Assembly (NCBI GenBank): GCA_002633005.1
Contig: NMRA01000254.1
Span: forward strand, 217,722 to 281,721
Source of the DNA: Phoronis australis
Taxonomy: Eukaryota; Animalia; Phoronida
DNA: 64,000 bases
Direction of reading: 5' to 3'
Below, piece by piece: positions 238 through 27,664 of the stretch. Position numbers and translations under genes: made by a program. The notes below the pieces were generated by a model that did not search any database, had not been told where the DNA came from, and worked only from the letters and a program-made list of their open reading frames with translations. The first letter of the stretch is position 1. The number at the start of each line of letters is the position of its first letter.

Positions 238-993
238 CCATTCTTGCTGGTAAGGATTACAAGATGACGATGAAAGATATATACATTGGTGCCCTCATGC
301 CACCCAGAAGTCAAACTGCGTCAAATATATTCCTGGGTCACGTAAAGAACGTCATCATTGATGGTGTAAAGTATTTCGACGTCGTCGGTGGCTGGCCCAA
401 CATTCCTGGCACCAACATCACTGGTAAACCGCCGAGTCGTCGTGAAACACCGCAGCCATTGAATCCCAGTACGTTCAAAACACCAGAGGCCCATGTGACC
501 CTGACCCAGCTGACTCGGGGAACTCGGTTGGCTCTCATGTTCAAAACCAAAGAACCGAACGGCCTGATCATGTACAACGGTCCAGCTCGTGGCTATGATG
601 ATTTCCTTGCTCTGGAATTGCGGAACGGCAACCTGGTCTATACGTTCAACACAGGCGGAAAAATTTCCATGATTGTTGCACGTACGCGGGCGCCACTTAA
701 TGACGACCAGTGGCATTATGTTGAGATCACGCAGCCAAATGAGTTAAAGACAGTGATGGTGGTGGATGACGCCGTGCAAGAGATTAGGAACTCTGCGTCT
801 GACCCAGATTTCAATTTTGGCGGGAAACTCTACCTTGGTGGAATGCCCGAGGACATGTACGATGAACTGCCAAGCATTCTGGACTCACGTACGGGCTTTA
901 AGGGTTGTTTGGCATCACTGGATCTGGATGGCCGCGTGCCCAACCTGTTCACTGACACGTTGACTAGACACCCGAAAGTGGCTGAGGGATGTG
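238..993 (+). CDS. Exon: end of one LamG/LNS domain plus a complete neurexin LNS5-like LamG domain
   Basis: ttacag|CC acceptor, G|gtaagt donor. [13 protein letters not shown]...[13 protein letters not shown]...[10 protein letters not shown]...LYLGG...[18 protein letters not shown]...EGC parallels neurexin LNS5 (PLNDNQWHNV...LYIGG...GFQGCLASVDLNGRLPDL...RGC). Confidence 0.92.
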
Positions 994-3900
994 GTAAGTT
1001 AGGTTACATGATTCATTTGAAAGGTGTCTTGCGATTTCGTCGAGGTCACATCACGTGATCATGGTAATGTTATCTGACAGTGCTCGCCACTTGTTACAAA
1101 GTACCAAAATGGCTATGTTTTAATGCTGAATTATGGGAGGAAATGGTACATAAACACACAGGATACTACGTCAGGGGACTCCCATCCTTTTTTACTTTTC
1201 CCAGGACGTGTTTCATTGGGTATATCAGCCTGCCACACCTCTGTCAAGTCAAGCCACAAACTATCCGTGCAGTGCATGGGACTGCGCTAATGGCGATAAC
1301 GGTTTCTATGAAATGCTTTTTGGCAACACGTAATAGGTTTCAAAATGTCCTGGACAACAAAATTCAACAAAGTTTCGATGCACAAAACTACGACAAAATA
1401 TCCATTTTATTGTCCGCAAGTGTCTAATTCTGGCTAAATCTCAACAAAATCTCAACAGCTGTTGCTCCAAGCATGTTGCCAAAATAGCAACAAGTTTGAT
1501 GCGTAAGTCCATTCATAAATAAATAATTAATTGCTAGATGCAAAAACGTTACATTAGCTCTTACAAAAGTTCAACAAAACACCATTTTATTGCGCCTAAA
1601 GTTTGACAAAACTGTCAAGTAATTCAAATTGACAGAATCTGGCAAAGTTGTGTCGAAGAGTGTCTAGTTTATTTTGAAAACCGGTGTATTTGTAGACAGG
1701 TGTGTTTTGCTCTTCACGATAGCAATGCAGTGTGCAGTGTTTTAAAGGAATGAATTCGTTGGTTGCAATGCAAAGGGAGGTTGAAATTGATGATCCTACA
1801 TCTGTTGCGCCTGACGAAAGTTGAATTTATTTTGCAGGTAACTTCTGCGATGAGGACACCTGCCTTAACGGTGGTCGTTGTCTGCCGAATGACAAGTGTG
1901 ACTGTTCACTTACCTCCTACACTGGAGAGTTCTGCAGTCAGCGTATGTTTGACCCGTAACGGCTATTAGTTGCTATAAATTGCATCTTGGCGATTTCAAC
2001 AATATTTAGTTGTACTTAACTATCAATTCTTAGAATGTAATCCATCCTGGAAAGTTCATAATCAGAGACATGTTAAATCTGTTCAACTGAACTAGGGTAC
2101 TTAGTAAAAATCCTCAAGCCCTCGGGAGCATCAGGTATCCTACTTGGAATGGTCCTATCTATCGCGAACACAGCAGGAAGCTCCACCTGTCCTGCCTTTC
2201 TAATCATACCACATGACACTCCCGTGGTTTTCACGACAAAGTTAGGCTTCATGTAGGTTTATGTTTTTTGTCTATTTAAAGATGACTAGTGGAAAATAAT
2301 TTTCTCCAATTTTCCAATTCTGTACCACACTACTAACATACCAATCTTTTGAAAAACTAAAGCATTCCACTGTGTTATAATATTAAGTCCTTGAAAACTG
2401 AAAAAGGACAATTTTGGTAAGAATTTTTGTCAGAAATTGATGAGATTCATTAGTGCCCTGTAGCCCTGCTCTGTTCTTGTATTTTAGAGGAGAACGGTTT
2501 CCGTATTGGCGAGCACAACAAGCCAGGGATGTTGAGATACAGGTTCCCAAGTGGGAACTTGCCCTCTTCCACCAAGGACATGGTAGCGTTTGGGTTCATG
2601 ACCTATGACTGCAATGGCGTGCTGTTCCGTGCTGAAAGTGAAGATAAATCAGAGTTTATTGAAGCTCGTCTGGTGGGTCTGACTTTGTAAACTTTTTGAC
2701 TGCATCATTCTGTGGAGTTTGATTTGAAATTTCTGCAAAATTATGTTAATATGTTTTTTTGTGCATATTTTTGGTTTTGGCTGATCAAATGACAGGCCCG
2801 TGAGTGTCAGCTTTCAGCACAATGATTTGTGCACTCAGATTACTTCTAATTTGAGTATGGTACAAGTAATTGAGACCCATAATGTCATGGTAATGTATGC
2901 ACCAAAAGTAATCGCACAATACGCCAATTCTTGTTATGATGTCCAGCCCCGTTTACTGTGAAAATGATACTGATCACGTTTCACTTGGTCAAATTCTAAG
3001 CGATTGTTGAATCCCTTTGCTAACTTGTAAATTTTCGGTCATTTTGTAGCAAGATGCACAACTACTGTAGCGATACATTGGGCTTGCTGTCAGCTGTCAT
3101 GCCAGGAACTGCCAGGTTATTTTGTGCTATTAGTTTTGGGGCAATCAAAGTAGGTGCAGATGTGTTTTCATGATCGATTTCCGCGTCAAAAAATTCTTTT
3201 CTTTATTAGGAAAATGGCGATGTTGTCGTTGAATGGAGGGTTGGTGACACAACATCAAGGATTGTGGAGCGTCGTCAGAGCTTCTGTGATGGCCGCTATC
3301 ATATTTTGCGGTTTGAAAGGGATGGGGCTTTGGCCTCACTATCTGTTGACGACTTGTTGCCCAATGAGAAGATTTCACCAGGTAAGATCAACGTCTAGAA
3401 AATGAAACTGAATTAATGTTATTTTATCTAGGTAATCTAGAAATGATGTAAACTGACACAGCGGAATTTACAGTAATGTAAAACATGGCTGACACTGGCC
3501 ATCTTGCACCATGTCATTTTGTACCCCGTCAAAGTTAACTTCTACACTGTACATGTCTAGTTTTTGCATTGAATATTTTTGAGCAGTAGCAGTCTATCAA
3601 ACCTGCAAGGCTATGAACCCATTTTTCTAATCTTGAGTTTCGAGCTCATGTTTTGTTTCTTTGAAATTGACGTATAGGATAATCTGGAGACAGTATAATG
3701 GGAAACATACAGAGTACAATGACACATTGTTGTATTGTTTGGTTTTCTTTATGCACTATAATCACGTATAGTGATGTGTGTGAGGCTTGTTATTGCTGCC
3801 CTGTGAGTAATTTTAACTTGTTTCATTAACAGATTCAGACAGAACATTCAGCCGCATATCTGTGGCGACGATTGGTGGAAAACAGTCGTCATCAAACATC

Positions 3901-6900
3901 ATTGACAACCCTCTGAACAGCATCATTGCAGGTATGGCCATTGACAATTGTACAAAATCTTGAATAGTCCCAGTGTCTGTGTATTTAGTCTAAAGCATAA
4001 TTGTAATGGAGGAGCGTACTGCTATGTATTAAGATACTGGTATGTAGTTTTATTTGAATTATGGTGACCACTGGTCATTGTTAAGCTGGGATGTTTGCTT
4101 TATTGAAGCTAAACTACTCCGTTTCATCCGTGAGTTCTAGATTTCTGCATTTGTGTAATGTTTTTTTATTTTTTTTTCCACAACTTCGATGAAATTTGTC
4201 AATATTTTTAAAAATCACTGTTCAAGGATCATTAATCAGCAACACTTTCTTCAATGCAGGACTTTACTTCAACGGTAAGGAGATCATAAAACTGGCAGAG
4301 CGCAATGCCCCAGGAACCACCCTCATGAGGGATATTCGCCTGATTCCTCCGCCATTCCGCCTGGATGCACCTACCGTCACGTGAGTACGGAGTACTTTCT
4401 ATGGTTTGAAGTTTTCGGTCTTTCCAGTCTCTAGGGATTAGAATGCCATAATAATTAGGATTGGTAATTACAGAGAGTTTTCAAACTCACTTCAAACTCT
4501 TCTTTACATTTTGATAATGGCATTGGTTTGTTTTAAAGATTTAGGTGACCGAGTCTTACACTGTTTCTGTTTATATGCTTAAACAAGGTTCAGTCAATGA
4601 AAAGCGTTAAGTCTAATAGATAGCTGTGTAAACTTATCGCGTGGTCTTCATTCATTCCAGTCAGACGCCATCCCCGCCTAGAGAAACGTTCTGTGTTGTT
4701 GAACAGGATGGGTCAACATGCCGTAACTATGGCCTCTGTCTCGTTGACTACTGCAACTGTAACTTTACGGCCTATGCGGGACCGTACTGCACAGCAGGTA
4801 AAGAGTTTCTTAGAATATTGTGTCTCTCCTTGCCCTGTCCTCACTTTTCAATGCCAAGTGCTTTGATGCAAACTTCTGTCAATTTTACAGAAATTTTTTG
4901 TTTAAAATTTTTAAATCAAATGGATATTTTGTTTTACAGACAGTTGCATTTGTCTGAGGGGAAACTAAACTGTCATTTGTACAGTGACAGCAGATTTGGA
5001 CAGCTTTCATCGCCTTTGTTACAACCGGAGGAATTGCCTAAGTCTCTATGGCACAGTGAATGACCCTACTCACTCCTATGTGAAACCCAGTAAAATCTCA
5101 TCTCATTGTGTAATGCGTAGTAATATCTGGTGGAAAATTGAGTGATCTTGCCACACTCAAAAGATACGGTACTAGCCTCGTTTCACTGGCACCCATTTAC
5201 ATTTTTCTGCAGCCTGTTACTATTTTTCAGTTATACAGAATACCTTGGTCACACTGTTCAGTGGTCAAATCTAGTTCGAACTTTAAAATCAGCGCTTATG
5301 CACACAACGACATATTAATGGACATTTCGGTTGTCTTTAAATCATTTTCAAGACAAAATTTCACAATATTCCAACCATCTAACACAGATGGAGAACAGAC
5401 TGTACAGGTGCATATCAAAATGCATTGTGAGGGGAGAGACCAGTAATCAAAACAGTTGGAGCTCAAATGAACCAATGTTTCTATTCAGATAGTGCTCAGC
5501 ATGATTCAGCCATATATGCATAGTCTCCTTTATGAGGAACCTGAGTGTGGCATTATCCTTGTCCAAGATATAGACACCAGAGTAATCTAAGTGTGACCAG
5601 TTGTCAATGAATTGTTAAGAACAGCACTGTGTGTGTCTTTACAGTGTTCTTATCAACATCGTAATCAAAGAACACTGTAAAAACACACGCAATTCATTTA
5701 CACTGTCACATTAAGTACGGAACAAAAACTACGCAGTATAAATTACAGCTCCCATCACTGATTATCAATATGTTATTTCAGAACCCTTTGGTTTGTACTT
5801 TGGTCGAAATGGTCAATCAGGCATCGGCCGCGTGATTCTAGATGGTGGTGAGAAAACTAACACAGATAAGGTAGCCATCGGCTTCATGACGCACTACCCT
5901 AATGGCGTCCTCTACAGGGGAAGTAATGAAGATGGACAGTATCTGGAGGTCTCTATGGTGAGTTGATTGTTTCAGTTTTCCCCTAGTGTCTGAGATTCAT
6001 TTTTTGTATGTTGGGATACCTCAACTTTGACGACTGTTAGCTGTGGAAGCCTGGCAGAAATAATGTGTTCGTGTGAAAGAGCTACCAAGCTATTGTTTGA
6101 GGTTATTTTGGACCTTAAAAATGTCCAATTTTTTTACTAACTTCAGAACATTATGTCTCAGAAATGGCTGATTGGATTCTCATGAAACTTGCACATACTA
6201 TGCCTTACGCACTGCTTTCCAACGGCTGTTAGGAATTGTTTTGGAAAATCGGTAAATCTGGGTCCCGTTCCACGAAAACTGACTTAGCTAAGGCAGATCT
6301 TAACTTTCAGTCAATATTAAGATAAGACTTAAATTTGTCGCATGTTCATTTCAAAAAAGAGATCTTATGTTCGACTTAAGTTTTTGACTTCACTTTTGTC
6401 TTAATTTTGACTATCTTATCAGATGTAGAAGTTTCAAAGTTCAGAATTTGAGACAAATCTTAGACTTAAGTAAAAAATGAACTTAAGTCAGTTTCTTGGA
6501 ACGGGTGTTATTATGAAGCTGTTCTGTTGATGCCAGGTAGAATATTCAGTGTTGCAAATAAGCAAATATTATGACTGCAAGAATTCTCTTTTTTTGGGAA
6601 ATTTTACTACACAATTGTGCTGTGCAGTGCTATGTAGTGCTATGTAGTGCTATGTAGTGCTATGCAGTGCTATGCAGTGCTATGCAGTGCTATGTAGTGT
6701 TATGCAGTGCTATGCAGTGCTATGTAGTGCTATGCAGTGCTATGCAGTGCTATGCAGTGCTATGCAGTGCTATGGAGTGCTATGTAGTGCTGTGCAGTGC
6801 TATGCAGTGCTATGCAGTGCTATGCAGTGCTATGCAGTGCTGTGCAGTGCTATGTAGTGCTATGCAGTGCTATGCAGTGCTGTGCAGTGCTATGCAGTGC

Positions 6901-9900
6901 TCTTTATCAACAAGTCTGTGTATTTAACCAACTATCTTAAAACTATAGTGAATTGTAAATGACTGAATATATTTTCTGAAAGAAAAAGTCTATTAACTTT
7001 TACCAATCTGCCATTCATTGAGTCATGTGCTCAGGTATTTTTTGTACACTTTTAAAAGCCAAAAAGAATTATGGAACGCTCATAGCAAAACGACGGTATC
7101 AATAACGTGACCTAATTTCATTTCATGCAGACTCATGTTAAAAGATTTTTTTCAATAAAACTCCATCGTACAGAAGTGAATCAATTTAAAATCGGTTCAC
7201 AACAGTGTTTTGGATAAATGCGCATAAAGAATTGTATGTGAAACTTTGGTATGAATCCAACTAGCCGTTTCCAAGGTATGGCATTCACATGTCAGCCAAA
7301 TTTGAACAATTTTCTAGGGTCCTATGTGACCTTAAAGTTCAAAGGAAATTACCATGGAGTTAGTTCTTGTCTTAACACATAAACTTATTATGAATGATGT
7401 TCTTATAGGTGGATGGTTATGTCGTCAGTAAATATGACCTTGGCTATGGCGAGCAGACGGTGTCGAGCTCCGAGCCTTTCAACGACGGAGAGTATCATGT
7501 GTACCGCTTTCACCGACAGAATGGAAATGTCAAGATACGTCTTGACGACTTCATGCCACAAGTGAGGCGTAGATCAGGTAGGAGATTTCTTTAATTGACT
7601 TCACCCCCCCATATTACTTTCTGTTTTATGCTGGCAAGGAGGTTATGGTTTTCAGGTGCATGTTATTGACATTGTCTCTTGTCAAACATGGATGAAAAAG
7701 TACTTTTGCAGTTATAGTACTTGACGGATGCTGTTTACAAAATGTCATACAAGGGAATTTTTTATTGAATTAGGCAACAAAACGAAGATGGCAATTGAAA
7801 TTTCACAAAAACAGTTATTGTGCTTTTCTCATTTTTTAAGGTCTTCTCATGTTGCAAGTGCCTGTAAGTTTCCAAAATTTTGTACGGTCCGTGGTAGATA
7901 TACAATACTTGAACATGGTAAAGCATTAATTTGGTGCCTTTTGTTTTATATGAAGAGAAGAGATAATTAAATTTCTGGAATGGGACTCTAGCCTCTAGGG
8001 TCTTACATGGGTCTCGCATTTTGAGAACCATTTTTTTCTGCTCAAGAACAAGCATCAAACTTAAAATCCAGGACCCCTGACTACTATCCATAGTAGTAGG
8101 CTGTTACTCTTGTTACACAGAATTTTTTACCATCTTTTTAGGTATTGTCTTGCTCAAACCCCAGACATCCTTCAATGTTGGTGCTCAGGATTACATAAGA
8201 GGGCGCTACATTAAGAGGTTCAACGGCATCTTGGGAGGTCAGTTATTTGTCAGGATTTTGTTGTGTTGTTAATTGTAGTCATGTGTGAGGAAATGGGGTG
8301 TGGATTAAGGTCCCAGCCCACATAATCGAAATCACTAACTTCAAACACTAGTTGGCATCAGCGAACCGTCACCATGAACTGATCAGGGAACTCCATTTGG
8401 GCTTTGGTGTTGTGCGTAATTAGGTCAAGACTTACTTGCCATAATGAAGAACTAATTGAAACAAAGGGTTCCTCTAAAGATGGTGCTGCATTTGGCTTCA
8501 AATCCAGTCGAAATATGGTTTTGCTCAGGTTTACGTTGTGAATTTGACAGACTACATTTTCACCACAACAGTGGCTATTGATTACAAATTCAGTGTTAGC
8601 TAATTACTGAAGTCAAGTCTTAACGATTTCTTGGACCACCGTTCTGGTGTTTTCCAGGTGGTCATTTTGAAATGCTTTTTGTACGTTATTATTCTTATTG
8701 AGTTTCGTCATCCTGTCTTGTAGTTCTTAATCTTGTCCTGTTCTTTGCATGTGTTTGTCTCGACTGTTAATGTCAATCAACCAATTCCTGCAGGGGTCAA
8801 CTACAACAACCAGTACATCCTAGACAACAGAAACATCGTCAAGGATGGCGACGTCACTATTGCTACGCATAAATTCAAGCTAGTGGACATTCCAAGTAAG
8901 TTAGGTCATCCAATGAACTCGTTATTCAAGAATTTTGGACCCTGAAATGGCTGCCGGAAATTTATGTCCCAGGGCTGTTTTGTTCAGAGTACTGCAGAGA
9001 GTGTCGTATCAGGGTTTTCTGCAGTTTAAAACAAAATTGATATCAGAGTGCAGTATCAACGTTTTGATATTAGGCAAATATCCTGAGGTACAAGAGTTGT
9101 ACCATTGTACACGAGGCTGATTTTTGCCTGATATTGAAATGTCGTTCGTGCTACACTCTAGCGCTGTTGTCAACTTCCCGCTTCCAATTTGGCCCAAAAA
9201 AATGAATGTTATTTTTCGCAATTTATTAATTAGCAGTTTATGAAGTTAGTTATCAGGTCTGAATACCGTTTATGGTCAAGTAATTATCAGTTGTAGCATT
9301 TTGTTCTCATAAACAACCCAGTGTCAGGTTTACAAGAACCTACCTATCACTGTCTCAATTATGACCAAGTGTGATGTTTCCTAAAACAGAACACGTTCTA
9401 GATTTTGAGCCCAGTGTACTCTGAGTAACACTAAGAATCCCCACTATCCTTTAAGGATGAATTTTATGCCCAAAATCGAAATTCAAAGTTTTGTTGAGAA
9501 ATTCAGAAACGTGTGTTACGGTGTGTGTTGCTGCTTTGATTTAGTGAATGTACGCAGACCATCACTAAGAAGTGTTCAGGTTTCCTAATATTACATTTTG
9601 CTCTATCTCAATTGTATTTGGATACCTGTGCCCGGTTGCATGAAACAGTCCCAAATAGGGACTCAACTAAGGTACCTAACTCTTTTGCGAATTTGTTTCC
9701 GTCTTTACTCACAAATGTGGCTCAGGTGTTTGGTGCAATGGACCCAGCCATGAGGCCTGCACACGTCTTATGCACCACAAATGACATCAGACCACTTGCA
9801 CTGTTTTTTTTTTTACTAATTTTGATATCTTTATTATCAGCTCCTCTTTGACTTATGACATTTTCTAATAAAACAATTAAGAACTGAGGCCTTATTTCAG

Positions 9901-15900: not shown

Positions 15901-18900
15901 ACAGCTATTGTTTAAAGTAGTCCCAGAGTCTTTAAAGCCATTATGATATCAAGTTTGTGTTAATAACATGTTTTAATTACAAAATAGGTTATTGCTATTC
16001 TGACAAGAATGCATGCCATACTTGTTGTTGCGGTCTGTCTTCTTTTAATTTCACTTTCTTAGCGTTTCTGATTGGTCTGTTATCTCTGTGGTTTCGGTTA
16101 ATAAGAAACTGTCAATTCCGAATTCAGTTGTCTTCATACGTTCACGAGAACTGACATTTCATAACTTAAGTTAGCCTCGATATGTCAGTGATTTGTTGCA
16201 AACCATAGCATCTTGATGAAGTTGCTGAGCTTACAGAAATTACTTTTGAATCATGATACATTCAATAGCAGTATGCTCTACATGCGGTAAATAGTCAGAC
16301 AAAATGATCTGGTATAATTACATATTGACGTCTAAATGCTAATGGAATTTCTTGTCAACGGCTGAGTGCAAGTCGCATTCACCTAGTTCATAGTTGTAAT
16401 AGTCACCTCTCGTTACCAGCCATGGCAAGGAAATGGGATTTTTCTCGGTTACAGTGCATGGCAAAAGTAATAGAGTGAGACAAAATGACATGTCCCATTT
16501 ACCTACCTCACTAGCTTTTCCGTTAATTCCTTTTCATTCTTGATCATGAAGTAAGGCCTCTCTGACGATGAATTGGACTTTTGCCCAGCCACCATGACAA
16601 GGAATTCTGGGTCGTTTCGCCTGAATATTTTTGGCATGTACTGTATGTACAGTATTTACTGTCAGTACAATATGTTATTACGCTCACAACATGATAGTAG
16701 TTGTATTAGAATTCTCAATGCTCACTACATCTCAACGGACACGCTTCTCGCTTCTTTCCGCTGGCTTTCTTTGCTCTCTGCTCTCTCTCTTCTAAATTCA
16801 TGATGTCTTTTGCTTCATCACGCTGTACTTACTATTTGAACATTCCTCGCACACTAATTCCATTAGAAAATAAATTTACATAGTCGTTATATTTGCACTA
16901 AACTCCCTGACGAGTATTATTTCCATACAAGTCTGCTTTTCAATCTTAATTGACAAGATTTAGCTTCCCATTATATTAAAGTCTTAAACTATGTGAATAA
17001 TTTGTAAAAATACAATGTTTTGTCATAATTCCTGACACAGATTGCTAGTGCAATACAATGAAGTTCTGAGGAAAAACGTGTAAAAAGCATACGACACAGT
17101 CTGACTCAGAAGTGAAATGTCTACAAATTTACTTCATTGTTTCCACCGTGTATTTTGAGCCAATGCAGTATTGCGGTAACTCTTAGTTTTAAAAATAGAA
17201 ATGTGGCTATCACAGCTACTTACAGTGTTCGCCCTACTCTTCCAAAAGATGAAGTCCGGTGGACCCACCTTCCAAAAGCTGAAGTCCGGTGGATTCACCT
17301 TCCAAAAGCTGAAGTCCGGTGGACTCACCTTCCAATATTTTTAGCTCCATTTGATTTTTGGGGTCCATGAAACTTAGTAACGGAATTTCTTTAAAAAAAC
17401 TCTCGCAAAGTATGAGCTTTTATTTTTCATAATATTTGTCTGTTTGGACACCATTTTTGCACTTATGTTATTGAGTCTCTACCCTATTGGACTGACTGTA
17501 ACAGGATAGTCTGACCTAAACTGTGATGACCTACTTACGGAGCAACGATGTCATGCATTTGGCTTCGAAAAATGAAACAATCTAATGGTGCTGTTATGTG
17601 AACAAAGAAAAGAACAAAATAATTTTCATTTGTTTTTAGTTTTATTTATCACAATCTTTGAACAAGAAGTTGCTTCCAAGGGAATGCACTCATCAAGTCA
17701 ATTTGCGTCAAATGACACAAAAACGCAACCTGGGGCGAACACTGTACTTATTTCACAAGTTGAAGAATTGTTACCATATTACTGACTGTCAAATAAATAA
17801 TCTTTTCCAACGTGATGTATTTGCAGCAGCTACTGCATTACTTTAAACTCTATATTTTTCCTCTGAGCTTCAAAGATCAACAGTCCCCCCCTAATAGTTT
17901 TAACTTTTTGATTGCCTAGGTTGCTTGTTAGTAAGGATATAGTTGGATAGACAGGGCACTTCTGGAACCCCAAAGCCAAACAAAGGAAATGATAATTCTA
18001 TGAGTAAAAAATTCACAATTCTTTATCGCTCACGTATTGTTTGTCCTAAAAAGTGAAACATAGTACAAATGAGTCAGTAGCAGTCTGTAAAGGTAGTCAG
18101 CTGGAAAGTTGCTAGTAGCATTACATAATATTATGTAATGTTGCCACGCCAACTTTCAGCTTGCCACCAATTGCTCCTATTCTTCCACCCAGTAAGAAAC
18201 CTGTAGCCGGTGGTGTTATGGGTGGCGGCGGCGCAGCATGGAACCCTGTCGTTGGAGCTGGAGGCGCTGGTGGAGAGGTCATGGGTCTGGCTAGTGGTGC
18301 TGGTGGAGCTGGCATGGGCGGTGTTGGTGCTGCTGTGGCGCCAGCAGCGGCAGGAGTTGGCGGTGGTGCTGCCGCTGGTGTCGCAGTCGCGTCCATACTA
18401 GCTCTTCTCATGCTGATCAGCTCACTCATCTGGGCCATCTACAAGTGTAAGCCCGGACTGATCCCATGTTGTGGAACCGGAGCCGCGGCTGGCGCCCCTG
18501 TTGCTGGAGCAGCTAGCTATCCCCTTCTGAAAGGAGGCGTCTTTGGGGCCAGCGCTGCAGGAGCTGGAGTAGGAGCAGGTTAGTGAATGGCACCCTGTCT
18601 GCGCGTATGACAGGAAGTACTCCACATTTTAAAGGCATACAGGATATGAGTTGTATTTGTATTTTTAAAAATAAGTAGTTATTGGTATTGTAAGGATGAA
18701 GTGTGAACTTGCCTTAAAAAACTTCATGCTGAAGTGTGTTAAATTGAGCTATTAAAAGTATTTGCTAATAGCTGGTAACAGAAGGGACGTGTATGAGCCA
18801 GGGGCATTTTGTTCAAGAATAAAATAAACTTCATTTTCTTTCTTTCATAAAAACGTAGGATTCAGTAAAACCAGTAAACAGTCTTAAATCCATTAACGAT

Positions 18901-21900
18901 GTGTGACCTCTGTGAGGCAGTCAATTCACTACAAAATTTGCGTGCTATGAGACCTTCGTATAAGTCTACTATTTTTGTAGGTGCTGGCATGGCCGGTGCC
19001 GGTGCAGGAGCAGGTGGTATGGCTGGTGCTGGTGCTGGCGGTATGGCCGGTGCAGCTGGCGCTGGAATGGCGGTAGGAAGCGGCGCAGGTCTGGCTGTCA
19101 ACGGCATGGCTGGTGGTGGTGGAATCGGTGGCGGTGCTGGATACTCGCAATTTTCAGCCAGCACCATCAACAGGCAAACGGTCTATGACGCTGCTGATGG
19201 CTCAATGGTGGATGGTGGAATGATGATGGGAGAGGGTAGGTACTAGGGACTTGTGGGTAAATGGGAGAGGGTAGGTAGTAGGGACTTGTGGGTAAATGGG
19301 AGAGGGTAAGTACTAGGGACTTGTGGGTAAATGGGAGAGGGTAGGTAGTAGGGACTTGTGGGTAAATGGGAGAGGGTAGGTAGTAGGGACTTGTGGGTAA
19401 ATGGGAGAGGGTAGGTACTAGGGACTTGTGGGTAAATGGGAGAGGGTAGGTACTAGGGACTTGTGGGTAAATGGGAGAGGGTAGGTACTAGGGACTTGTC
19501 GGTAAATGGAAAATCTTGATGCTTGTCCCATGGTATAATCTTTAACCCAAGGTTTTAAACAACAATTGCATAAAATTTAAGAATGGTCTGATGTCATTGG
19601 TAACTGAATCTTTGGTGTGTGCAGACACGATACTGTACTTAAGAGATTATTGTTGGATATATTTTCTCATGTAATAGTTATTGAGTGATATCTGTTATGT
19701 AATGTTTCTCTTATGATGTCTGCTAATAATGCAGGATCTGTTGACGTCATTGGCTACCATTTGCAGGTGGCAACATCTACGACTCTAGCACACTGGCTCA
19801 CTCTCAGTACAATACGTCCAGCTACAGTGGTGGCGGTGGCACCATGGGTGGCACCATGGGTGGCACTGGCCGAGGAAACACCATGACCTCTGGCTTCCGC
19901 ACCATGTCAGAGAGTGCCAGCAATTACGGCGGCAGTGGCATGGGTGGTGGTGGCACATTCATCGAAGGCTATGGTAACACGATGGGACACAATGCACAGG
20001 TGCATAATTATTCAACCTCCTCGTCGGTGCATAATTACATGACGGAGTCACGCCAGTTTGGAACTATGGGCGGTGCCAGCACCATGGGGGATTCTACGCA
20101 ATTCTTGGGATTCGGCGGCTCTGTGTCCATGCCGTTCATCACGCTGAACGAGGATGTCAAGGTTGACTGTTGTCTCCTAACTGCCGATGGACGTCACGTG
20201 GTGACAGGCTCCTGTACTGGACCTCCCCAAGTGTGGAACATGGCGGTTGGTATTTAATTTTGAATTCATGTTGTCAGTGTTAGCTTTTATATTTTACTTA
20301 TAACTCTTTCACTGCTAGGTTTCCTAGAACTGCATTTACCAAATTTTGGAGAAACGTAGATAATGCGGTGCAATCAGTAACATGTATCAGCGGTGAAACA
20401 GAATAAGATTTGGTTGACATACATGTCTAGTCTGACATTTCATTCTTGTAAAAGCAAAATTGTTTTGAATCTGAGACAAAGTATGTGCGGTTAACAGTCT
20501 CGGGAGGCCTGTATGTCAATCACAGTTCTGTATGTCAATCACAGTTCGACAGGTAAGTAATCGACAGAAATTTTTAAAAAAAACGTGGAAAATTATTTTC
20601 ATTCAGGATTTGGTAAAAATGCCTTACTATGTATGACGATGTTGTTATACTAATTATCTCACGGGAAGTTTAGGGTTGATGAGGCAAAGAATGGGCAGGT
20701 ACTCAAGTCACCAAATGGCACATTTGGCTGTAAAAAAGTTAATACAAATAATTGAAAATGACATTTTCTTAAAGCAAATTCAGTCACTGTTGCAATATCA
20801 AAACATTTTAGGCACTGCCTTCACATATATACTTAATACATGCATTCAAATTCATGACTTTTCTGTTGGAATAACCTAGCAAGAGAAGAGTTAACATTCA
20901 CAAGCTCTGGTAGAAGAGTTTTCATCAGGTCTCCAAGAAATGAGACTCATCTTCAATTTCCCCCATATGTCGCATATTCTCTCACTTCTAGGAACACCCA
21001 TATGTCTACCTCTCTCCTGTGCAATTAGTCTTCAAGTATAGATATCGGGGATAATTCTAGCTCTTGCTTTCAACATGGTTGGCATTTTTTCTTTGTGGCC
21101 TGGTATAAATGTTGCCACGGATTTGTCGGCGCAGCTACACCCTAAAACTGACACGGTCCGTAGCTATGGAATTTCTGGTCTTTTCCTGGTATTCACCTGG
21201 TACGTTTCCAATTTTCTAGAATGGAGAACTTGTGACTGTGATGGCTGGTGATGACATGAACTCTACCGACCTTCACCTTGCACTAAATGACTCTCTGTTG
21301 GTGGGTCAAGTGAGTACAGAACAGACGAGTCTGGACATGTCTGATGTACAGGCGAGCAACAGGGTACCACTGAGGAAGCTACAGGTGGGTCGTTTGTTCT
21401 TTGACATTAAACATGGCAAATACCTGCATTCACTAACATTCTTGTTTTGATAGTTCCCAAATGCTGTGTCATGTCCAATATTCCCATGCAAAACACTAAG
21501 TCTAATCTCAATATTTGAATCTGGACTTGAAAGTAATTTTCACATTTTCCGTTCTATGTTAAAACATTGTTAAGAAAAGAGTGTTTTTTTGTTCTCAAGT
21601 ACGCTATGGTTTACGCAGACGAATTTCTAGTCCCAACTTCACACTTCTTGACCCCTAGATTGGAGTTGCAAACTTGAGTAAAAACTAGAGATTTCATGTT
21701 CAGACTCGAACTTATAACTTTAATGCTGGTGTCGTCAAGTGTAAACTAAGATTAGACAGTTGGTCATCCATGTTAACCACTGTGTGTTGCAGCTCAAAGA
21801 AAAGTTGTTCTGAGTTCACACATCAAAGGTAGAATGAAAAATGTCAAATAACAATTTCGAGTTTTAGTCCGATCCCAAATTGAAAATAAATTGCCTCTAA

Positions 21901-24900
21901 TTTGAAACCTAACTTTTCTTATGGCAAGTTCTTTAGTGTCACAAGATCCAGGGTTTGTAAAAAGCTACTACTAACTTTAAGATCAGTCGACACTGTCATA
22001 AGTAACATATTATATATTTTTTTCATGTTAAGCCAAATTCAGAACCACCTTCGATGAAAATTTGTGTTCTTTTTGGAATACATCTTAAAAGTATTTTTGC
22101 AGTCTGTAGTGAATTAGTCAGTTCCTAATTTCACAGTTAAACCTCTTGGAATAATACGGAGAATCATTGATTACTGCTGGGGCTAGATTCACTGTCATAA
22201 CTTTGAGTTATTTTAGTTTCAAATGGCCGATTATAACTCTGACTTAAATATATCTTTTTCAGTGAGGCGTGGGAATATGTTAGGAACATTTTGTGCCATC
22301 AGCACGCCATCTGTTCGGTCACATCAAGTGTCCTAATGAATATATAAGTTCGAAAAGATTTTTGCCCCCAAATGGGACTTCTGCTAACCGTGCAGACGCT
22401 CTAGCCACTGAGCCATCGGGACCACTGGTCAAAGAGAAATCCAGTGACACTTAGTAGTGGGCATCTTACCCTAGATTAAGGGTAAGATGCTCACTACTAA
22501 GTCTTATTGGATTTCTGTGTTTGACTAGTGGTCCCCTGCATGGTTAGCAGAAGGTCCTGGGTTAGAGTCCCGTTCGGGGGCAAAAATCTTTTCGGACTTA
22601 TGTTCATTAGGACATGTGATGTGACCAAAAAGATTATGTGCTGATGGGTAAAAAATGTTTGCAACTCTGATGACTTAATGCAACTATTATCACTGCACAA
22701 GGCTTTAGATTTTAAAAGTGTCCTAAATCAGGTGCAAATTTTAAGGAAAGAAGTCCTAGAATGTGTTACTACCCCAATTTATTCCTATGCATCTGTTATC
22801 ACTGATTTTTCAGATATGGGACTTTGAAAGCGGTCAGCCATTGGAAATGGCCGATGGTCAAATGTGTTCTGCCATAGCCATGATGTCTGATGGACGACGC
22901 GTGGTGCTGGGACGAACAGACAAGTTTGGAAATGCCACTCACGTGACCATTTATGATCTCATGGGAAACGAGACATTACGTGATATTAGGTAATGATTGA
23001 ACTGTCTAATGGTATTAATTTTGGTACTACCTAAATTATTACTATAGAAATTGCAGGAGGGATCTGTTTTCACAGTTAGTGTTGTGGTGAGTTTATTTTT
23101 AATTCAAGTAGACTAGTTTTTTGGTTTGATTTAGCTGTTTTTCATGTACTTGATTTTAGCATTTTACGTGCAGATTTTTCATTTCCGAAAGAAAAAAGTA
23201 TGCTGTTCAAAAAATTGATTTTTGTCACCCACACAAAATATCTGAACACACTAGGAAACATTTTTCTGTGTTAAGTGGAAGTATTATTTGTACATGCCAA
23301 GTTTTGGTCACCATGTAGTTGCCATTGGCAACTACTGTATTCTCGCGTAATAAATGTTATATCTGTACATGGCGCAGGTACGACGGAGGTGTTGGGATCG
23401 CTGACAGCGTCACGTGTCTCCATCTGTCACCTGATGACAGGTATGTCATCGCTGGCTTCAACAACTCGTATGACGGGAATGCCAATTTTGTCGTCTTCGA
23501 TCTCAGTGTTAGTGACCACATCGCTGTCGACCCCAAGATTATCGCTCTTGATGCCGAGCCTCAGTGTACAGCTATCTTGGACACTCACGAAGCTGTGACT
23601 GGTACGTGTTGCAAGGTTCTGTAGCAGTGTGATCCTTTTCGGGAATTGCAACTTTCTCTCGTTCAGTGGCCATGCCAGACAGCAGCAAAGCTGTTGTTCT
23701 CGATTTCCTTCATATGGTAAACCATTTTCTTGTAAGACTATCGAAGACAATTAGTTAAAGCTGAATGAGAGAAATTTTTAATGATTTGTTAAAGCAAATT
23801 TAAGAAACTCAGTGCCACACTTTATAACAGTCTGCTTGAATATGATTGTGTGAAGTCTTCTAGAAAAAGGTTATGTAAGCACCCTTAATGCTCATTGTTT
23901 TTCATTGCCTAGCATCTTGCAAATGCTTGGCATCACTAAGTATGGCCTACACTACTTCTTTTACGTTTGAGTCCCACATAAAAATTGCTGTGGACTCGAG
24001 ACTTCTCATAATGGCTGCATTTTTCCCAGTGGTTGCCTTGCCAACTATGTTTCTTATACTTCTTTCATGTCATTGCAGGCACTCGCAAGGGAGAGCTGGT
24101 AATCTGGAGCCTGCGGACCGGCAAGCCTCTACGCCAGCTCATCGGCAACACCGGGGGGACCATGACCTTGAACCGTGTTTCCGCGCTGAGCGCTCACTCA
24201 GCTGAGATAAAGGACCTTACACTGTCCAAGGATGGCCGAATATTGGTGTCAGCGTCTGCAGACGGCACGCTGAGGTCATGGTCAATGGACACAGAGAAAC
24301 TAATGCACACTCTGTCTGGACATAAGGATGAAGTAAGAATTATTGTCTCACTCGAATCTACTCTCTTGTTCCCCACTCCCCCCTCCCCTCTATCCTGTGC
24401 TCTCTGCTCACCATCCCTGCCACCCTCTCTGGTTACCTCCTTCCAGCCTCCCTACATTTCTCCTCCCTCACTCCCTCCCCCCTCCCTCCAGCTCTTCCTC
24501 TGACTCTTCTCTCCATTCTCCCCTCCTCTCCTAAATTAAGATATTACCGATTTCATTCTTTTTACAAAAATAATTTAATTTTGAAGTTTCACAAATTAAT
24601 GAAGTTTCACCGGTAGCTTTAACTGTAACATGGTTGTACTGTTGTTACTTGGCACTGATGAATATAGTATTTTTGTCATAAATATTGTCACACCCCACAA
24701 TACAAACATCATTTCACCATGTTCTACTTAACGCGTGTCATATGTCTTCCGTTATTTTCTTTTTCCCTGTCTTACTTTGGTAATTTCACGCCTATTTGTG
24801 TGTGTGTGTGTGTGTGTGTTTGTGTGAATGACTGTGTGGATGTACAACACTACAATCATTGGTCTCAAATTTAAATTATTTCTTGCCATGTGTAGGTTTG

Positions 24901-25135
24901 GTGCTGTGATATATCCCATGACAACGAGATGATTCTGTCAGGATCGCGTGACAGTACAATTCGACTCTGGAGGACCCGCAACGGTGCACCTATATGTCTA
25001 TTCAACGCTAACATGGACATATTCTCAGTAAAGATGAGCGCCAATGCCGGAACCGTTGTTGCCCTAGGCGACAAGTTTGCGTCCAGAAAGTTGATCATGT
25101 TGCAGATAGTTCATTCAAGAAGCAGACGACATTAG
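238..25135 (+). CDS. 5'-truncated 23-exon gene: neurexin-like single-pass membrane protein (LNS-LNS-[EGF-LNS]x3-TM) with a cytoplasmic low-complexity linker and C-terminal WD40 propeller
   Basis: Exons 238-993, 1838-1942, 2488-2672, 3210-3381, 3833-3931, 4260-4380, 4661-4797, 5782-5957, 7409-7577, 8142-8237, 8794-8895, 10481-10600, 11438-11616, 11929-12205, 14121-14244, 18160-18578, 18981-19235, 19767-20245, 21220-21384, 22814-22989, 23378-23601, 24079-24332, 24896-25135. All junctions are AG/GT, phases are consistent throughout, and the frame is open to TAG at 25133-25135. Confidence 0.85.
1838..1942 (+). CDS. Exon: EGF-like domain, copy 1
   Basis: tttgcag| acceptor, |gtatgt donor; [34 protein letters not shown] with six Cys; phase 1-1. 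Confidence 0.9.
2488..2672 (+). CDS. Exon: LNS6-like LamG copy 1, part a
   Basis: attttag| acceptor, |gtgggt donor; [49 protein letters not shown]. Confidence 0.88.
3210..3381 (+). CDS. Exon: LNS6-like LamG copy 1, part b
   Basis: ctttattag| acceptor, |gtaaga donor; [12 protein letters not shown]...[24 protein letters not shown]. Confidence 0.88.
3833..3931 (+). CDS. Exon: LNS6-like LamG copy 1, part c
   Basis: taacag| acceptor, |gtatgg donor; [17 protein letters not shown]...PLNSIIAG. Confidence 0.82.
4260..4380 (+). CDS. Exon: LNS6-like LamG copy 1, part d and linker
   Basis: atgcag| acceptor, |gtgagt donor; [32 protein letters not shown] (compare neurexin GLYYNGLKVLNMAAEND...NVRLV). Confidence 0.88.
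4661..4797 (+). CDS. Exon: EGF-like domain, copy 2
   Basis: ttccag| acceptor, |gtaaag donor; [36 protein letters not shown]. Confidence 0.88.
5782..5957 (+). CDS. Exon: LNS6-like LamG copy 2, part a
   Basis: tttcag| acceptor, |gtgagt donor; [35 protein letters not shown]. Confidence 0.88.
6264..6505. mobile_element. MITE (non-autonomous TIR element), intronic
   Basis: Left cccgttccacgaaaactgactta and right taagtcagtttcttggaacggg are near-perfect inverted repeats; a second copy lies at 12995-13189. Confidence 0.75.
6617..6900. repeat. 10-bp minisatellite (GTGCTATGCA)n, about 28 copies
   Basis: Directly visible tandem array with variants GTGCTATGTA and GTGCTGTGCA. Confidence 0.97.
7409..7577 (+). 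CDS. Exon: LNS6-like LamG copy 2, part b
   Basis: ttatag| acceptor, |gtagga donor; [14 protein letters not shown]...[24 protein letters not shown]. Confidence 0.88.
8142..8237 (+). CDS. Exon: LNS6-like LamG copy 2, part c
   Basis: tttttag| acceptor, |gtcagt donor; [32 protein letters not shown]. Confidence 0.82.
8794..8895 (+). CDS. Exon: LNS6-like LamG copy 2, part d
   Basis: cctgcag| acceptor, |gtaagt donor; [34 protein letters not shown]. Confidence 0.85.
9629..9953. mobile_element. Degenerate MITE
   Basis: Imperfect TIRs atgaaacagtcccaaatagggact and agtccttaaatttggggcgtttcat. Confidence 0.45.
10481..10600 (+). CDS. Exon: EGF-like domain, copy 3
   Basis: tttgcag| acceptor, |gtaagt donor; [39 protein letters not shown]. 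Confidence 0.9.
11438..11616 (+). CDS. Exon: LNS6-like LamG copy 3, part a
   Basis: attccag| acceptor, |gtaagt donor; [37 protein letters not shown]. Confidence 0.9.
11929..12205 (+). CDS. Exon: LNS6-like LamG copy 3, parts b and c fused
   Basis: ttctcag| acceptor, |gtaagt donor; [14 protein letters not shown]...[23 protein letters not shown]...ISLGA...PFDGILAG. Confidence 0.9.
12995..13189. mobile_element. Truncated second copy of the 6264-6505 MITE family
   Basis: Colinear similarity (acttagctaagacaaattttaagtttcagtcaattttaagataaaacttaaatttgtc...gagacaaatct); right TIR missing. Confidence 0.75.
13194..13356. mobile_element. Small MITE abutting the truncated copy
   Basis: TIRs gccctttcatact...gcgtcgac and gtcgacgc...agtatgaatggtc. 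Confidence 0.5.
14121..14244 (+). CDS. Exon: LNS6-like LamG copy 3, part d
   Basis: atttag| acceptor, |gtatgt donor; [24 protein letters not shown]; ends in phase 2 like the paralogous exon 4260-4380. Confidence 0.85.
14312..14385 (+). mobile_element. tRNA-derived SINE head
   Basis: Pol III A box TGGCCTAGTGG (14321) and B box GGTTCGAATCC (14365); no convincing cloverleaf, so not called as a tRNA. Confidence 0.6.
14497..14608. repeat. Inverted repeat with 50-bp arms and a 12-nt loop
   Basis: Arms 14497-14546 and 14559-14608 pair at about 45 of 50 positions. Confidence 0.9.
14639..15540 (+). mobile_element. Helentron/HINE (pearl/DINE-1-like) non-autonomous element with ~150-bp internal tandem units
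   Basis: Starts tttttatgcgcccac; repeated units contain ctctgtatct, gaaatttggca and ctagtgg; related copies at 36775-37590 and 39320-40210. Confidence 0.6.
17240..17335. repeat. 30-bp tandem repeat, 3 copies
   Basis: cttccaaaagctgaagtccggtggactcac repeated with minor variants. Confidence 0.9.
18160..18578 (+). CDS. Exon: Pro/Gly/Ala-rich stalk, transmembrane helix and juxtamembrane Cys cluster
   Basis: tttcag| acceptor (phase 2), |gttagt donor; hydrophobic [22 protein letters not shown] followed by [19 protein letters not shown] resembles the neurexin TM exit LLYAMYKYR. Confidence 0.88.
18981..19235 (+). CDS. Exon: cytoplasmic Gly/Ala/Met-rich low-complexity region
   Basis: tttgtag| acceptor, |gtaggt donor; [15 protein letters not shown]...[16 protein letters not shown]; phase 1-1. 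Confidence 0.85.
19226..19505. repeat. 35-bp G-rich minisatellite, 8 copies, spanning an exon-intron junction
   Basis: Unit atgggagagggtaggtactagggacttgtgggtaa; the first 10 nt of unit 1 are exonic. Confidence 0.97.
19767..20245 (+). CDS. Exon: Gly/Ser/Thr/Met-rich linker and first WD40 repeat
   Basis: ttgcag| acceptor, |gttggt donor; ends [30 protein letters not shown]. Confidence 0.87.
21220..21384 (+). CDS. Exon: WD40 region
   Basis: ttctag| acceptor, |gtgggt donor; [31 protein letters not shown]...RKLQ; phase 0-0. Confidence 0.83.
21638..21745. mobile_element. Degenerate MITE, same family as 61917-62042
   Basis: Shared internal tgttcagactcgaa and cacttxxtgacccc/gtcxtcaagtgxaa ends. Confidence 0.6.
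22285..22658. mobile_element. Palindromic (fold-back) element whose arms contain tRNA-like heads
   Basis: Centre acttagtagtgggcatcttaccct-agatta-agggtaagatgctcactactaagt; arms pair out to aacatttt/aaaatgtt. A-box sequence lies on the minus strand of the left arm and B-box-like ggttagagtccc on the right arm. Confidence 0.75.
22814..22989 (+). CDS. Exon: WD40 region
   Basis: tttcag| acceptor, |gtaatg donor; IWDFESG...[16 protein letters not shown]...VTIYDL. Confidence 0.87.
23378..23601 (+). CDS. Exon: WD40 region
   Basis: gcgcag| acceptor, |gtacgt donor; [18 protein letters not shown]...FVVFDLS...[13 protein letters not shown]. Confidence 0.87.
24079..24332 (+). CDS. Exon: WD40 region (canonical repeat)
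   Basis: attgcag| acceptor, |gtaaga donor; GELVIWSL...[32 protein letters not shown]...LSGHKDE. Confidence 0.92.
24360..24532. repeat. Polypyrimidine (CT-rich) low-complexity tract
   Basis: Intronic C/T-rich run immediately after the donor at 24333. Confidence 0.8.
24798..24826. repeat. (TG)n microsatellite
   Basis: Direct inspection. Confidence 0.9.
24896..25135 (+). CDS. Terminal coding exon: last WD40 repeats and stop
   Basis: tgtag| acceptor; [26 protein letters not shown]...[16 protein letters not shown]. Confidence 0.92.
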   Translation, partial: VWCCDISHDNEMILSGSRDSTIRLWRTRNGAPICLFNANMDIFSVKMSANAGTVVALGDKFASRKLIMLQIVHSRSRRH

Positions 25136-27658
25136 ACTGTTCCAGAGACAGATGGCACTAGTTCGCTTGTTTTAAGTGCTAATTTTGTTTCTGCATTTCA
25201 TTTATTTTTATGTTAAGGATAAGAAGCTCATTAATGTGTAGATTGATTTGATTTAAACTGCAACATTATATAAAGCAGTTTCTTGAGCTTTTGACATTCT
25301 TAGTCGTTAGTAATTGTTTCTCAAATCTGGGTTTGTGTGAGGAAAGCTGTGTACTAAACTTACAATGGCAGTCAATTGAACAAAGTGTATGACAAAGTTA
25401 TGACTGCGAGATGATGAATCACTGTTGTTGACAGCACTCTCTATTGAGGCGTATGGTAATCAATGGTTGTCTGTTAGGTGGAGCCAGATTGGTTGGTTTG
25501 TTCTGGCATGCCTGATTGGTTGGTTTGGGTTAATACTGAACATGTTTTGTAACAATGCTGTTTTTAAAATGGAGAAAAAGATTAATATAGACATAAATAT
25601 ACCGTAAATTTGTGAAATAACGCCCTGGGTGCTTAAATTAGGAAACTGTAAAATGGTGAGGGGGGGGGGGCACTTGCATCAAAAATTAAAAACCAGATTG
25701 CGAGTTTTTCGTTTTTACTCAATGGTCAAGGTAAAATGCTAAATATTTCTTTGTCTATATTTGTCTTTTTACCCATTTTAATTTTATGTTTTAGCTGGTC
25801 ATAGCTGGTAACTATTTACACCTTGATGAAAGCTATTCTTGTTGTAGATGTAGTAGTTTTTTAAAACCATTTTGAATCTGTGTAATAATATATATTTCTT
25901 GTGTTATTACTATATTTTTGTTTATTTCGTTTACTAATTGCTTTTTAATTATTATTTATCGCAGACTTGCCAACTTGCTTGAGGAATCAAATTACTAGAT
26001 CTGGTGGTCTACTGTTTTTTATTTTGCATAATATTTCCACGGTCTCTATTGGTTTCAGTGGAAAAGGATCTGAGCAGGTACTGGCTTTTCATCATGAGAT
26101 CAAAGTTGCATAAAGTTTTAGTTGTTTGTAGTGAGTTCAAATGCAATTTGTGTCTATGCGAAATGATCAAGAAAACTTGTGGAACTGTTACATGTAATAG
26201 TTTAAATTTGCACCCCTGTGTAATTTGAGAGTTGTGAAATCAAACAAATGAATTGGAGTACAAAGTCATGTTTTTGATTGCTGTAATTTTTCATGCCCAC
26301 ATATTTATCACCCAATTTGTCAGAAAAGTGGAATTGTGGTGTCAGAACTCTCAATACAAACAGTTACAAAAATCTTTTAGCGGTGGCTTCAACTTTGCAT
26401 AAAATTGTCATGAAACAACACAGGACAATTATGAGCATTTATAACTGGGCAAACTACTGGAAGAAAAACAGTACGTGACTTTGTGCTACAAAACCGTCAA
26501 CAGTGCCATTCTAATTCTATTGGTTTGTGGTGCTACTGTACACTTAATCGTTTGCTGTTTAGCGGTGGTGAGGCTGTGAATATTAAATATTCTCGGCTGA
26601 AAATGTTGTTCTTGGACTATCTCGTATGAAATACAGGCAGTTCAACTAGTTCTTGTAGGTTATTTAAATTCTTGAAGCCTGTTAGCTTGGGTGGTACTAT
26701 AATAGGCCATTGTGTATACTGCTTGTTTTTGTCATAGAATTGCAGAAGCTGTTGCTCTGTTGCTTAGCTACTAATTGTTAATTATTAACTCTGTTTTTTG
26801 GTGGTTTGATTTATATTTTGCATTCACCACCAAATGGTAGAACTCATCGCCAACTGTTGTTTTTGGTGTGCAATCACTTGACTTGAGAATTCCTTGCAGA
26901 AGTGGACATTTGAGCTGTGTGACCTTTTTCATGGATCTCTCAAAAGCAATTGATAAAGTTCCCTTTCATATTGATGGCAGGTGGCCCCTACCTAAGTCAC
27001 TGTGACAATAGCTTTGATGTCACAGTTACTTGCGAGCTGTCTAGGGTTGCGGCAGTTTCGAACATTTTGATTTCAATCATCAGCTTTGTATATAGTAAAG
27101 ACTCACCAATTTCCACAAAGATATTAGCCAAAATTGACCTTTATTGTTCAAAGTTCAAAGGCCTCTGACCGACAGTTTCTCAAAACATTGTCTGGTAGTA
27201 GGTATGGTATAGAGGTATGATTTAGTTTGCTTCTCTTATATGAATAATGAATAATGAATAATCGACTTTTCCGCTATATTGTGCCCTAAATTGGTGTGGT
27301 TTTATTTTATCATTAACTTCTTAACAAGGCAGTTCTCGTCCACACTCTTGTGCTATTTCGATGCAGTCGGAAATTTCCTGTCTGTTTGCTTTCATTTTTT
27401 GTGGTGATTATGGTAGATTGTACTAGTTTTCAGTCTGCAGAGTATAGGCGAAAAACAACGACTTGTGCCAGTGATTGTACGAGGTGGTGGGCGAGTCAAT
27501 TCAAAAGCTGGCCCTTCATTGCAGCGGTTGTTGCGATCTTAAATCAGGTGGTTGTAAACCATTAGTGAATGCTCGCTTCCCACAGTATGTGAACTGTGAA
27601 TCTCGTGTTAGTACTATTATCATCATTGTGACCTTTACTATTTTTATTATTATTTTGA

Positions 27659-27664
27659 AATAAA
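27659..27664 (+). promoter_or_regulatory. Candidate polyadenylation signal after a ~2.5 kb T-rich putative 3' UTR
   Basis: AATAAA downstream of the stop codon; further AATAAA hexamers near 28163. Not discriminating in AT-rich DNA. Confidence 0.25.

What the first reader, a model, noticed from the sequence alone, without database searches (positions are those of the whole stretch)
238..25135. Neurexin-derived receptor with an intracellular WD40 beta-propeller instead of a PDZ-binding tail
Seen: 23 exons join in one open frame, running from LamG/EGF domains through one TM helix and a long low-complexity linker into about 7-8 WD40 repeats, ending ...HSRSRRH*. Every junction is GT/AG and phase-compatible, including the links across the TM (phases 2, 1, 1), and the first WD40 repeat shares an exon (19767-20245) with the linker. 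Known: neurexins have a ~55-aa tail ending in a PDZ ligand (e.g. KEYYV) that recruits CASK/Mint. The LNS5, EGF3, LNS6 and TM-exit (LIWAIYKCK vs LLYAMYKYR) motifs here are neurexin-like, but that tail is absent. I know of no characterised neurexin/CASPR/axotactin-type protein with a cytoplasmic WD40 domain. Inference: an adhesion receptor carrying its own intracellular scaffold, possibly a lineage-specific junction or synapse signalling system.
Basis: partly seen in the sequence, partly recalled or inferred. Interest (0 to 1): 0.9.

Follow-up and report, generated by a model that had tools for sequence, protein, structure and literature searches.

The report
PHRED-1-family neurexin-WD40 adhesion receptor gene
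This is a real, spliced, expressed animal gene that joins a neurexin-type outer part to a WD40 protein-binding domain predicted to lie inside the cell; the layout matches the PHRED-1 family already described in flatworm muscle, so it is likely an ordinary new member, unusual only in carrying three copies of the last outer module.

Summary
The gene is real, but the architecture is already described. RNA reads support 22 of 22 junctions, including those linking the LamG exons, the transmembrane exon, the linker and the WD40 exons. One acceptor is corrected (18193, not 18160), giving 1664 aa in the window. The 5' end lies outside it. The same LamG/EGF-TM-WD40 layout occurs in named mollusc and annelid proteins, 49-56% identical over the WD40 part. 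Planarian PHRED-1 itself could not be aligned, so membership is inferred. Additions here: the EGF3-LNS6 module is present three times (one copy in 7 of 7 relatives), all three lack the neurexin calcium-site asparagine, and a relative's WD40 domain is predicted to be an eight-bladed propeller. The host clade is undetermined; the tree mildly favours an annelid (AU p=0.056). Likely role: muscle-surface adhesion receptor with a built-in cytoplasmic scaffold.

The parts
238..993 (+). Internal exon 1 in the window: end of LNS4 and all of LNS5 (aa 1-251); the gene starts upstream of the window
   Evidence: Best stretch against neurexin-1-alpha 3qcw_A is residues 770-1013; Pfam Laminin_G_2 E 7e-30; X1 contig has 654 nt before 238
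1838..4380 (+). EGF3-LNS6 module, copy 1 (exons 1838-1942, 2488-2672, 3210-3381, 3833-3931, 4260-4380; aa 252-478)
   Evidence: Junction reads; 29-37% identical to the single membrane-proximal module of 6 relatives; tree
4661..8895 (+). EGF3-LNS6 module, copy 2 (exons 4661-4797, 5782-5957, 7409-7577, 8142-8237, 8794-8895; aa 479-705)
   Evidence: Junction reads; blastp; tree
10481..14244 (+). EGF3-LNS6 module, copy 3 (exons 10481-10600, 11438-11616, 11929-12205, 14121-14244; aa 706-938)
   Evidence: Junction reads; Pfam EGF_2 and Laminin_G_2; blastp; tree
18193..18578 (+). Exon 16: Gly/Ala-rich stalk, the single predicted TM helix (about 18374-18439), the family TM-exit motif W-A-x-Y-K-x-K-P-G and a Cys pair; acceptor corrected from 18160
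   Evidence: Reads 14244>18193 and 18578>18981; only hydrophobic peak in the model; motif shared with 8 relatives
18455..20149 (+). 255-aa low-complexity linker after the TM (end of exon 16, exon 18981-19235, most of exon 19767-20245); predicted cytoplasmic
   Evidence: 27% Gly, 14% Ala, 11% Ser; relatives have 193-317 aa linkers; junction reads
20150..25135 (+). WD40 beta-propeller (aa 1281-1664; exons ending 20245, 21220-21384, 22814-22989, 23378-23601, 24079-24332, 24896-25135) and stop codon
   Evidence: Junction reads; Pfam WD40; 49-60% identity to 10 relatives, 80 of 384 positions invariant; a relative's model best matches eight-bladed propellers
25136..27680 (+). 3' UTR of about 2.5 kb; end approximate
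   Evidence: Continuous stranded depth to about 27.6 kb, read ends piled at 27632; AATAAA at 27659

Best explanation
The window holds the 3' part of one spliced, expressed gene that is likely a PHRED-1-family receptor: a neurexin-alpha-derived LamG/EGF outer part, one predicted membrane helix, a 255-residue low-complexity linker and a WD40 domain predicted to be a cytoplasmic eight-bladed propeller, likely working as an adhesion receptor on muscle cells. Shown: exon chain, expression, domain order, three EGF3-LNS6 copies, orthologues in molluscs and annelids. Inferred: the LNS/EGF rod binds a ligand on a neighbouring cell or in the matrix; the flexible linker lets the propeller reach the cortex and bind cytoskeletal or attachment proteins, taking over the job that the PDZ tail and CASK/Mint do in neurexin; this couples adhesion to muscle-fibre alignment, as planarian RNAi suggests. 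All three LNS6 copies lack the residue matching neurexin N238, so canonical calcium-dependent neuroligin binding is unlikely. Odds: family membership about 0.93, adhesion receptor with own scaffold about 0.8, mainly muscle about 0.55.
For: 22 of 22 junctions spliced, with no large drop across the TM-linker-WD40 links: mean reads per junction for ectodomain against WD40 are 10.4/9.5, 10.4/17.5 and 16.0/35.8 in X2, X3, X4. One X1 contig runs from LamG exons through the TM exon into exon 17. LamG, a TM-exit motif and this WD40 domain sit in single records from 7 clusters: P0003, P0016/P0281 (Mizuhopecten), P0018, P0023 (Aplysia), P0026 (Candidula), P0078 (Tegillarca), P0177 (Owenia). The PHRED-1 paper defines the family by this layout, names mollusc and polychaete homologues, and shows muscle expression and muscle-fibre defects on RNAi with pharynx neuron number unchanged; a second paper reports a muscle-fibre elongation phenotype for phred-1 RNAi (passage). 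AlphaFold2 of the Helobdella domain: pLDDT 82, pTM 0.81, 30 strands; top Foldseek hits ODA16 TM 0.68 and eight-bladed Tako8 0.62, against 0.51 for seven-bladed WRAP-T. Calcium-site positions D137/N238 read E/S, Q/K, Q/R in the three copies, but D or E and N or D in 6 of 6 relatives aligned.
Against: Short reads chain the exons but show no single full-length molecule. In X1 the WD40-plus-UTR contig has depth 342 against 51 for the ectodomain contig, which leaves room for a WD40-only transcript in that material. Tissue of expression is unknown here; muscle is carried over from planarians only. No ligand or propeller partner is known. Membrane topology is from hydropathy and homology only, and the signal peptide lies outside the window. 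The fold was predicted for a relative (52-53% identical), not for this protein.
Confidence: 0.75

Rival explanations
1. It is a synaptic neurexin variant that binds neuroligin in neurons and signals through the WD40 domain instead of CASK/Mint.
For: The ectodomain is closer to neurexin-1-alpha than to any other solved structure; the Aplysia record is named neurexin-1; relatives keep acidic or amide residues at the calcium site.
Against: All three LNS6 copies here lack the N238 equivalent and two have Gln at D137; planarian PHRED-1 is in muscle and its knockdown left pharynx neuron number unchanged.
Confidence: 0.12
2. It is a cleaved signalling receptor: the ectodomain is shed and the linker-WD40 piece is released into the cell, as recalled for Notch and for neurexin intracellular fragments.
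For: A folded, strongly conserved propeller (80 of 384 positions invariant) on a long flexible tether would suit release; the X1 depth step would also fit a separately made WD40 product.
Against: The planarian Western shows one band above 270 kD with an ectodomain antibody, so full-length protein persists; no cleavage was tested here.
Confidence: 0.1
3. Two genes or transcripts (a LamG-TM gene and a WD40 gene) only appear fused, by read-through or by chance phase match.
For: X1 contigs break near 19927 with a seven-fold depth step; WD40-only records exist (Helobdella P0005, P0006; Mizuhopecten OWF43129.1).
Against: Linking junctions carry 4-29 reads per run, like their neighbours; there is no stop between TM and WD40; the fusion is in 7 other clusters; the short Mizuhopecten record shares a cluster with the fused 1715-aa record; planarian 5' RACE gave one 8-kb transcript.
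Confidence: 0.03

Closest known systems
PHRED-1 family (Schmidtea mediterranea PHRED-1; Adler and Sanchez Alvarado, bioRxiv 10.1101/131789; Dev Biol 427:165 as cited in PMC6453901)
   Same: LamG and EGF domains, one TM helix, C-terminal WD40 repeats strongly conserved in the family; homologues in molluscs and annelids.
   Different: Three tandem EGF3-LNS6 modules here, one in 7 of 7 relatives checked; calcium-site residues degenerate here. The paper reported 3 WD40 domains by SMART; a relative's model suggests eight blades. Host clade unknown.
Neurexin-1-alpha (PDB 3qcw, 3r05, 3poy)
   Same: LNS4-LNS5-EGF3-LNS6 order and sequence: exon 1 E 4.9e-77; relative P0003 E 3.2e-159.
   Different: Neurexins have a short tail with a PDZ motif that binds CASK and Mint; here a 255-aa linker and about 384 aa of WD40 follow the TM and the chain ends in HSRSRRH.
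Owenia fusiformis CAH1790210.1 (P0177, 3736 aa)
   Same: Same TM-exit motif, Gly-rich linker and WD40 domain (56% identical); closest named relative.
   Different: Owenia repeats LNS5-like domains about five times rather than EGF3-LNS6, and has a long extra N-terminal LamG-like region.

Membership tests
PHRED-1 family | LamG, EGF and WD40 domains in one protein | tested here: met
   Pfam on exons and 22 of 22 junctions spliced
PHRED-1 family | Single TM helix between LamG/EGF and WD40 | tested here: met
   One hydropathy peak; TM-exit motif shared with 8 relatives; prediction only
PHRED-1 family | Strongly conserved C-terminal WD40 region shared with mollusc and annelid members | tested here: met
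   49-56% identity to named Aplysia, Mizuhopecten, Helobdella and Owenia proteins
PHRED-1 family | Reciprocal best hit to planarian dd_Smed_v6_4789 | not testable with these tools
   No tool returned the planarian protein; the paper's supplementary alignment could not be seen
PHRED-1 family | N-terminal signal peptide | not testable with these tools
   5' exons lie outside the window and no genome is held
PHRED-1 family | Host is a lophotrochozoan | tested here: inconclusive
   WD40 tree places the window between Owenia and the Helobdella group at 91/90; the alternative is not rejected, AU p=0.056
PHRED-1 family | Expression and function in muscle | not testable with these tools
   Tissues of runs X1-X4 are not given
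Canonical neurexin-1 | Short cytoplasmic tail ending in a PDZ-binding motif | tested here: not met
   About 640 aa follow the TM and end in HSRSRRH; reads support that exon chain; definition
Canonical neurexin-1 | LNS6 calcium site (D137, N238) needed for neuroligin binding | tested here: not met
   E/S, Q/K, Q/R in the three copies by alignment
Canonical neurexin-1 | Three LNS-EGF-LNS repeats with one LNS6 | tested here: not met
   EGF3-LNS6 occurs three times; the N-terminal repeats are outside the window

The most novel reading that the evidence does not exclude
The host is not a lophotrochozoan (for example a hemichordate or echinoderm), so the neurexin-WD40 fusion predates the protostome-deuterostome split and was lost in vertebrates and ecdysozoans, overturning the published claim that it is lophotrochozoan-only; its triplicated, calcium-site-free LNS6 modules would bind a new ligand class.
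Probability: 0.12. Interest if true: 0.6.

Novelty: new member of a known kind. Interest (0 to 1): 0.3.

Why it matters
The headline architecture is known, so surprise for a specialist is modest. The family is barely studied: one functional paper, in planarians, which says the role of the WD40 part is unknown. This member adds a read-verified exon chain, a predicted eight-bladed propeller with 80 invariant positions to aim pull-downs at, and evidence that the ectodomain grows by different module duplications in different lineages (EGF3-LNS6 here, LNS5-like in Owenia). It also shows that database names such as 'neurexin-1' (Aplysia) or 'WD repeat-containing protein 5B' (Mizuhopecten) hide the family. 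It would matter more if the host proved to lie outside Lophotrochozoa.

Tried and rejected
No whole genome is held, so the 5' exons and a canonical neurexin paralogue in this host could not be sought. The run index listed no holder on record as RNA; the raw-read runs added by species label gave the evidence. The representative search with P0001 was swamped by generic WD40 proteins: 3 of 150 listed rows were family members by coverage; likewise 6 of 120 listed rows (380 passed, 260 not shown). Family range is therefore undersampled and the lack of deuterostome hits is weak. The Atlas gave only generic WD40 clusters for P0001 and no usable hit for P0281. The VIA-align comparisons did not complete. 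Module-skipping splice forms were looked for and none was among the joints shown for 1-12300 (2 joints not shown). The timing of the triplication is unresolved: the three copies are long branches and do not group. Host clade from neighbouring genes failed: 150 of 173 stop-free frames downstream gave only THAP, CXC and one sub-threshold Rad10 hit; Rfam found nothing. Four look-ups of earlier findings returned nothing. Paper searches for a deuterostome report listed none by title or abstract start; the first search missed PHRED-1, the second found it. No complex prediction was run, as no partner is known.

Full report
Observation. I rebuilt the 23-exon model from the sequence. Every intron is GT..AG, the frame is open to the stop at 25133-25135, and there is one hydrophobic peak. 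Pfam finds LamG in exons 1 and 14, EGF in exons 7 (weak) and 12, and WD40 in exons 21-23. RNA reads settle the question of chance. Four runs were laid (one set of contigs, three stranded raw-read runs from a second study). All 22 junctions are spliced in the three raw-read runs, 17-77 reads each when summed. The links that matter carry 13/11/27 reads (last LamG exon to TM exon), 6/8/22, 4/9/21 and 6/13/29 (linker exon to next WD40 exon). The TM exon is entered at 18193 rather than 18160, which removes 11 residues in frame and gives 1664 aa. The gene begins upstream of the window and has a 3' UTR of about 2.5 kb.

One transcript or two. Junction counts are flat in X2 and rise about two-fold towards the 3' end in X3 and X4, which ordinary 3' bias can give. 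Against this, X1 shows depth 342 on the WD40-UTR contig and 51 on the ectodomain contig. That may be bias or a WD40-only form in that material; short reads cannot decide. No read spans the whole molecule.

Relatives. An exon-21 search gave 1 hit among 35 candidates, and that protein led to 6 among 788, including P0003, which has LamG, EGF, a TM segment and the same WD40 domain. A search with the P0003 WD40 region listed 120 of 380 hits, 6 of them with LamG; the representative search added Owenia. Named members come from Aplysia, Candidula, Tegillarca, Mizuhopecten, Helobdella and Owenia; that these are all molluscs or annelids is my own knowledge. The WD40 domain is 49-60% identical to ten relatives, with 80 of 384 positions invariant, and the TM-exit motif and long linker are shared.

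What is known. The second paper search returned PHRED-1 (bioRxiv 10.1101/131789; I read parts 1-4 of 5 and passages; figures and supplements, including the homologue list and WD40 alignment, were not visible and bear on membership and range). It describes a 2536-aa planarian protein with signal peptide, 6 LamG, 9 EGF, TM and WD40 domains, homologues only in lophotrochozoans, expression in muscle, and thickened or disordered muscle fibres after RNAi. The journal version was seen only as a reference in PMC6453901 (passages) and is not held. A review of wiring receptors has no mention of WD40 or PHRED (PMC10084454, term search). The neurexin tail definition is from PMC3229692 (passages) and the calcium-site numbering from PMC2570956 (passages). 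Other papers were seen only in search listings; none of those listings shows a deuterostome member.

What this member adds. Exon 1 is the end of LNS4 plus LNS5. The next 14 exons are three copies of EGF3-LNS6, 29-35% identical to each other, each with the same opening phase pattern 1, 0 and similar exon sizes. All three fall with the EGF3-LNS6 modules of relatives, not with EGF2-LNS4, at 100/100 support. Seven of seven relatives checked have one such module, by a cysteine pattern that could miss divergent EGF domains; Owenia instead repeats LNS5-like domains. At the neurexin calcium site, mapped through the 3qcw alignment, the copies read E/S, Q/K and Q/R where six relatives keep D or E and N or D; the alignment of copy 2 has a gap nearby. 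An AlphaFold2 model of the Helobdella domain from a 10-row alignment has 30 strands and matches eight-bladed propellers better than seven-bladed ones (Tako8 and WRAP-T blade numbers are in the titles, those of ODA16, TBLR1 and Fbw7 are recalled).

Host. Not given and not resolved. The window's WD40 is about as far from Owenia (56%) as Owenia is from molluscs (53-57%). With 16 rows the tree left it unresolved outside the mollusc clade. With 12 rows (four short fragments left out) it sits between Owenia and the Helobdella group at 91/90; a tree that holds all presumed annelids together without it is 5.8 log-likelihood units worse, AU p=0.056, and the group was named after seeing the first tree. 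This leans to an annelid but does not exclude another phylum.

Mechanism. Most likely a type I adhesion receptor of muscle: the LNS/EGF rod binds a neighbour or matrix, and the tethered propeller gathers cytoskeletal or attachment proteins in place of neurexin's PDZ partners. The gene structure, expression and domain order are shown; topology and blade number are predicted; ligand, partners and tissue are inferred from the planarian work. Rivals are a synaptic neurexin variant (0.12), a cleaved signalling receptor (0.10) and two separate genes (0.03).

Verdict. Observation confirmed with one splice-site correction; interpretation partly supported; new member of a known, little-studied family; interest 0.3, or 0.6 if the host is outside Lophotrochozoa (probability about 0.12).

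Noticed in passing
window 19226-19509: A 35-bp tandem repeat of about eight copies begins inside exon 17 and repeats its splice donor each time; the joints shown use only the first donor.
   Followed up: partly
window 19934: An X1 contig has a 12-nt in-frame insertion in the Gly/Met-rich linker, a likely length polymorphism.
   Followed up: no
window 14640-15430: Intronic repeat with an internal duplication, covered at depth 140-210 by 90-95% alike reads from other copies; a transcribed mobile-element family is likely.
   Followed up: no
window 22285-22659: Inverted pair, 77% alike over 396 columns, in intron 19; looks like two opposed SINE-type elements (recalled resemblance).
   Followed up: no
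window 6640-6900: Array of a 10-bp unit in intron 8 with no read cover.
   Followed up: no
window 31697-31945 and 53064-53435: Isolated CXC (PF03638, E 3.6e-5) and THAP (PF05485, E 1.2e-6) frames in the otherwise gene-poor 36 kb downstream; likely transposon remnants.
   Followed up: partly
window 60779-61082 and 63682-63985: Direct repeat of 306 bp at 95% identity; an assembly gap of 357 N lies near 54520-54880.
   Followed up: no
P0001, P0163, P0272, P0078: These fragments stop matching the family right at the window's exon 22/23 boundary, and P0001 and P0163 start at its exon 19/20 boundary, which suggests conserved intron positions in other species.
   Followed up: no
P0023, P0280/P0281, P0005/P0006: Database names hide the family: the Aplysia member is called neurexin-1, and a 415-aa Mizuhopecten WD40-only record clusters with the fused 1715-aa record, so the two Helobdella WD40-only records may be split gene models. 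The Aplysia member ends in QVLV, which resembles a class II PDZ ligand (recalled pattern).
   Followed up: partly
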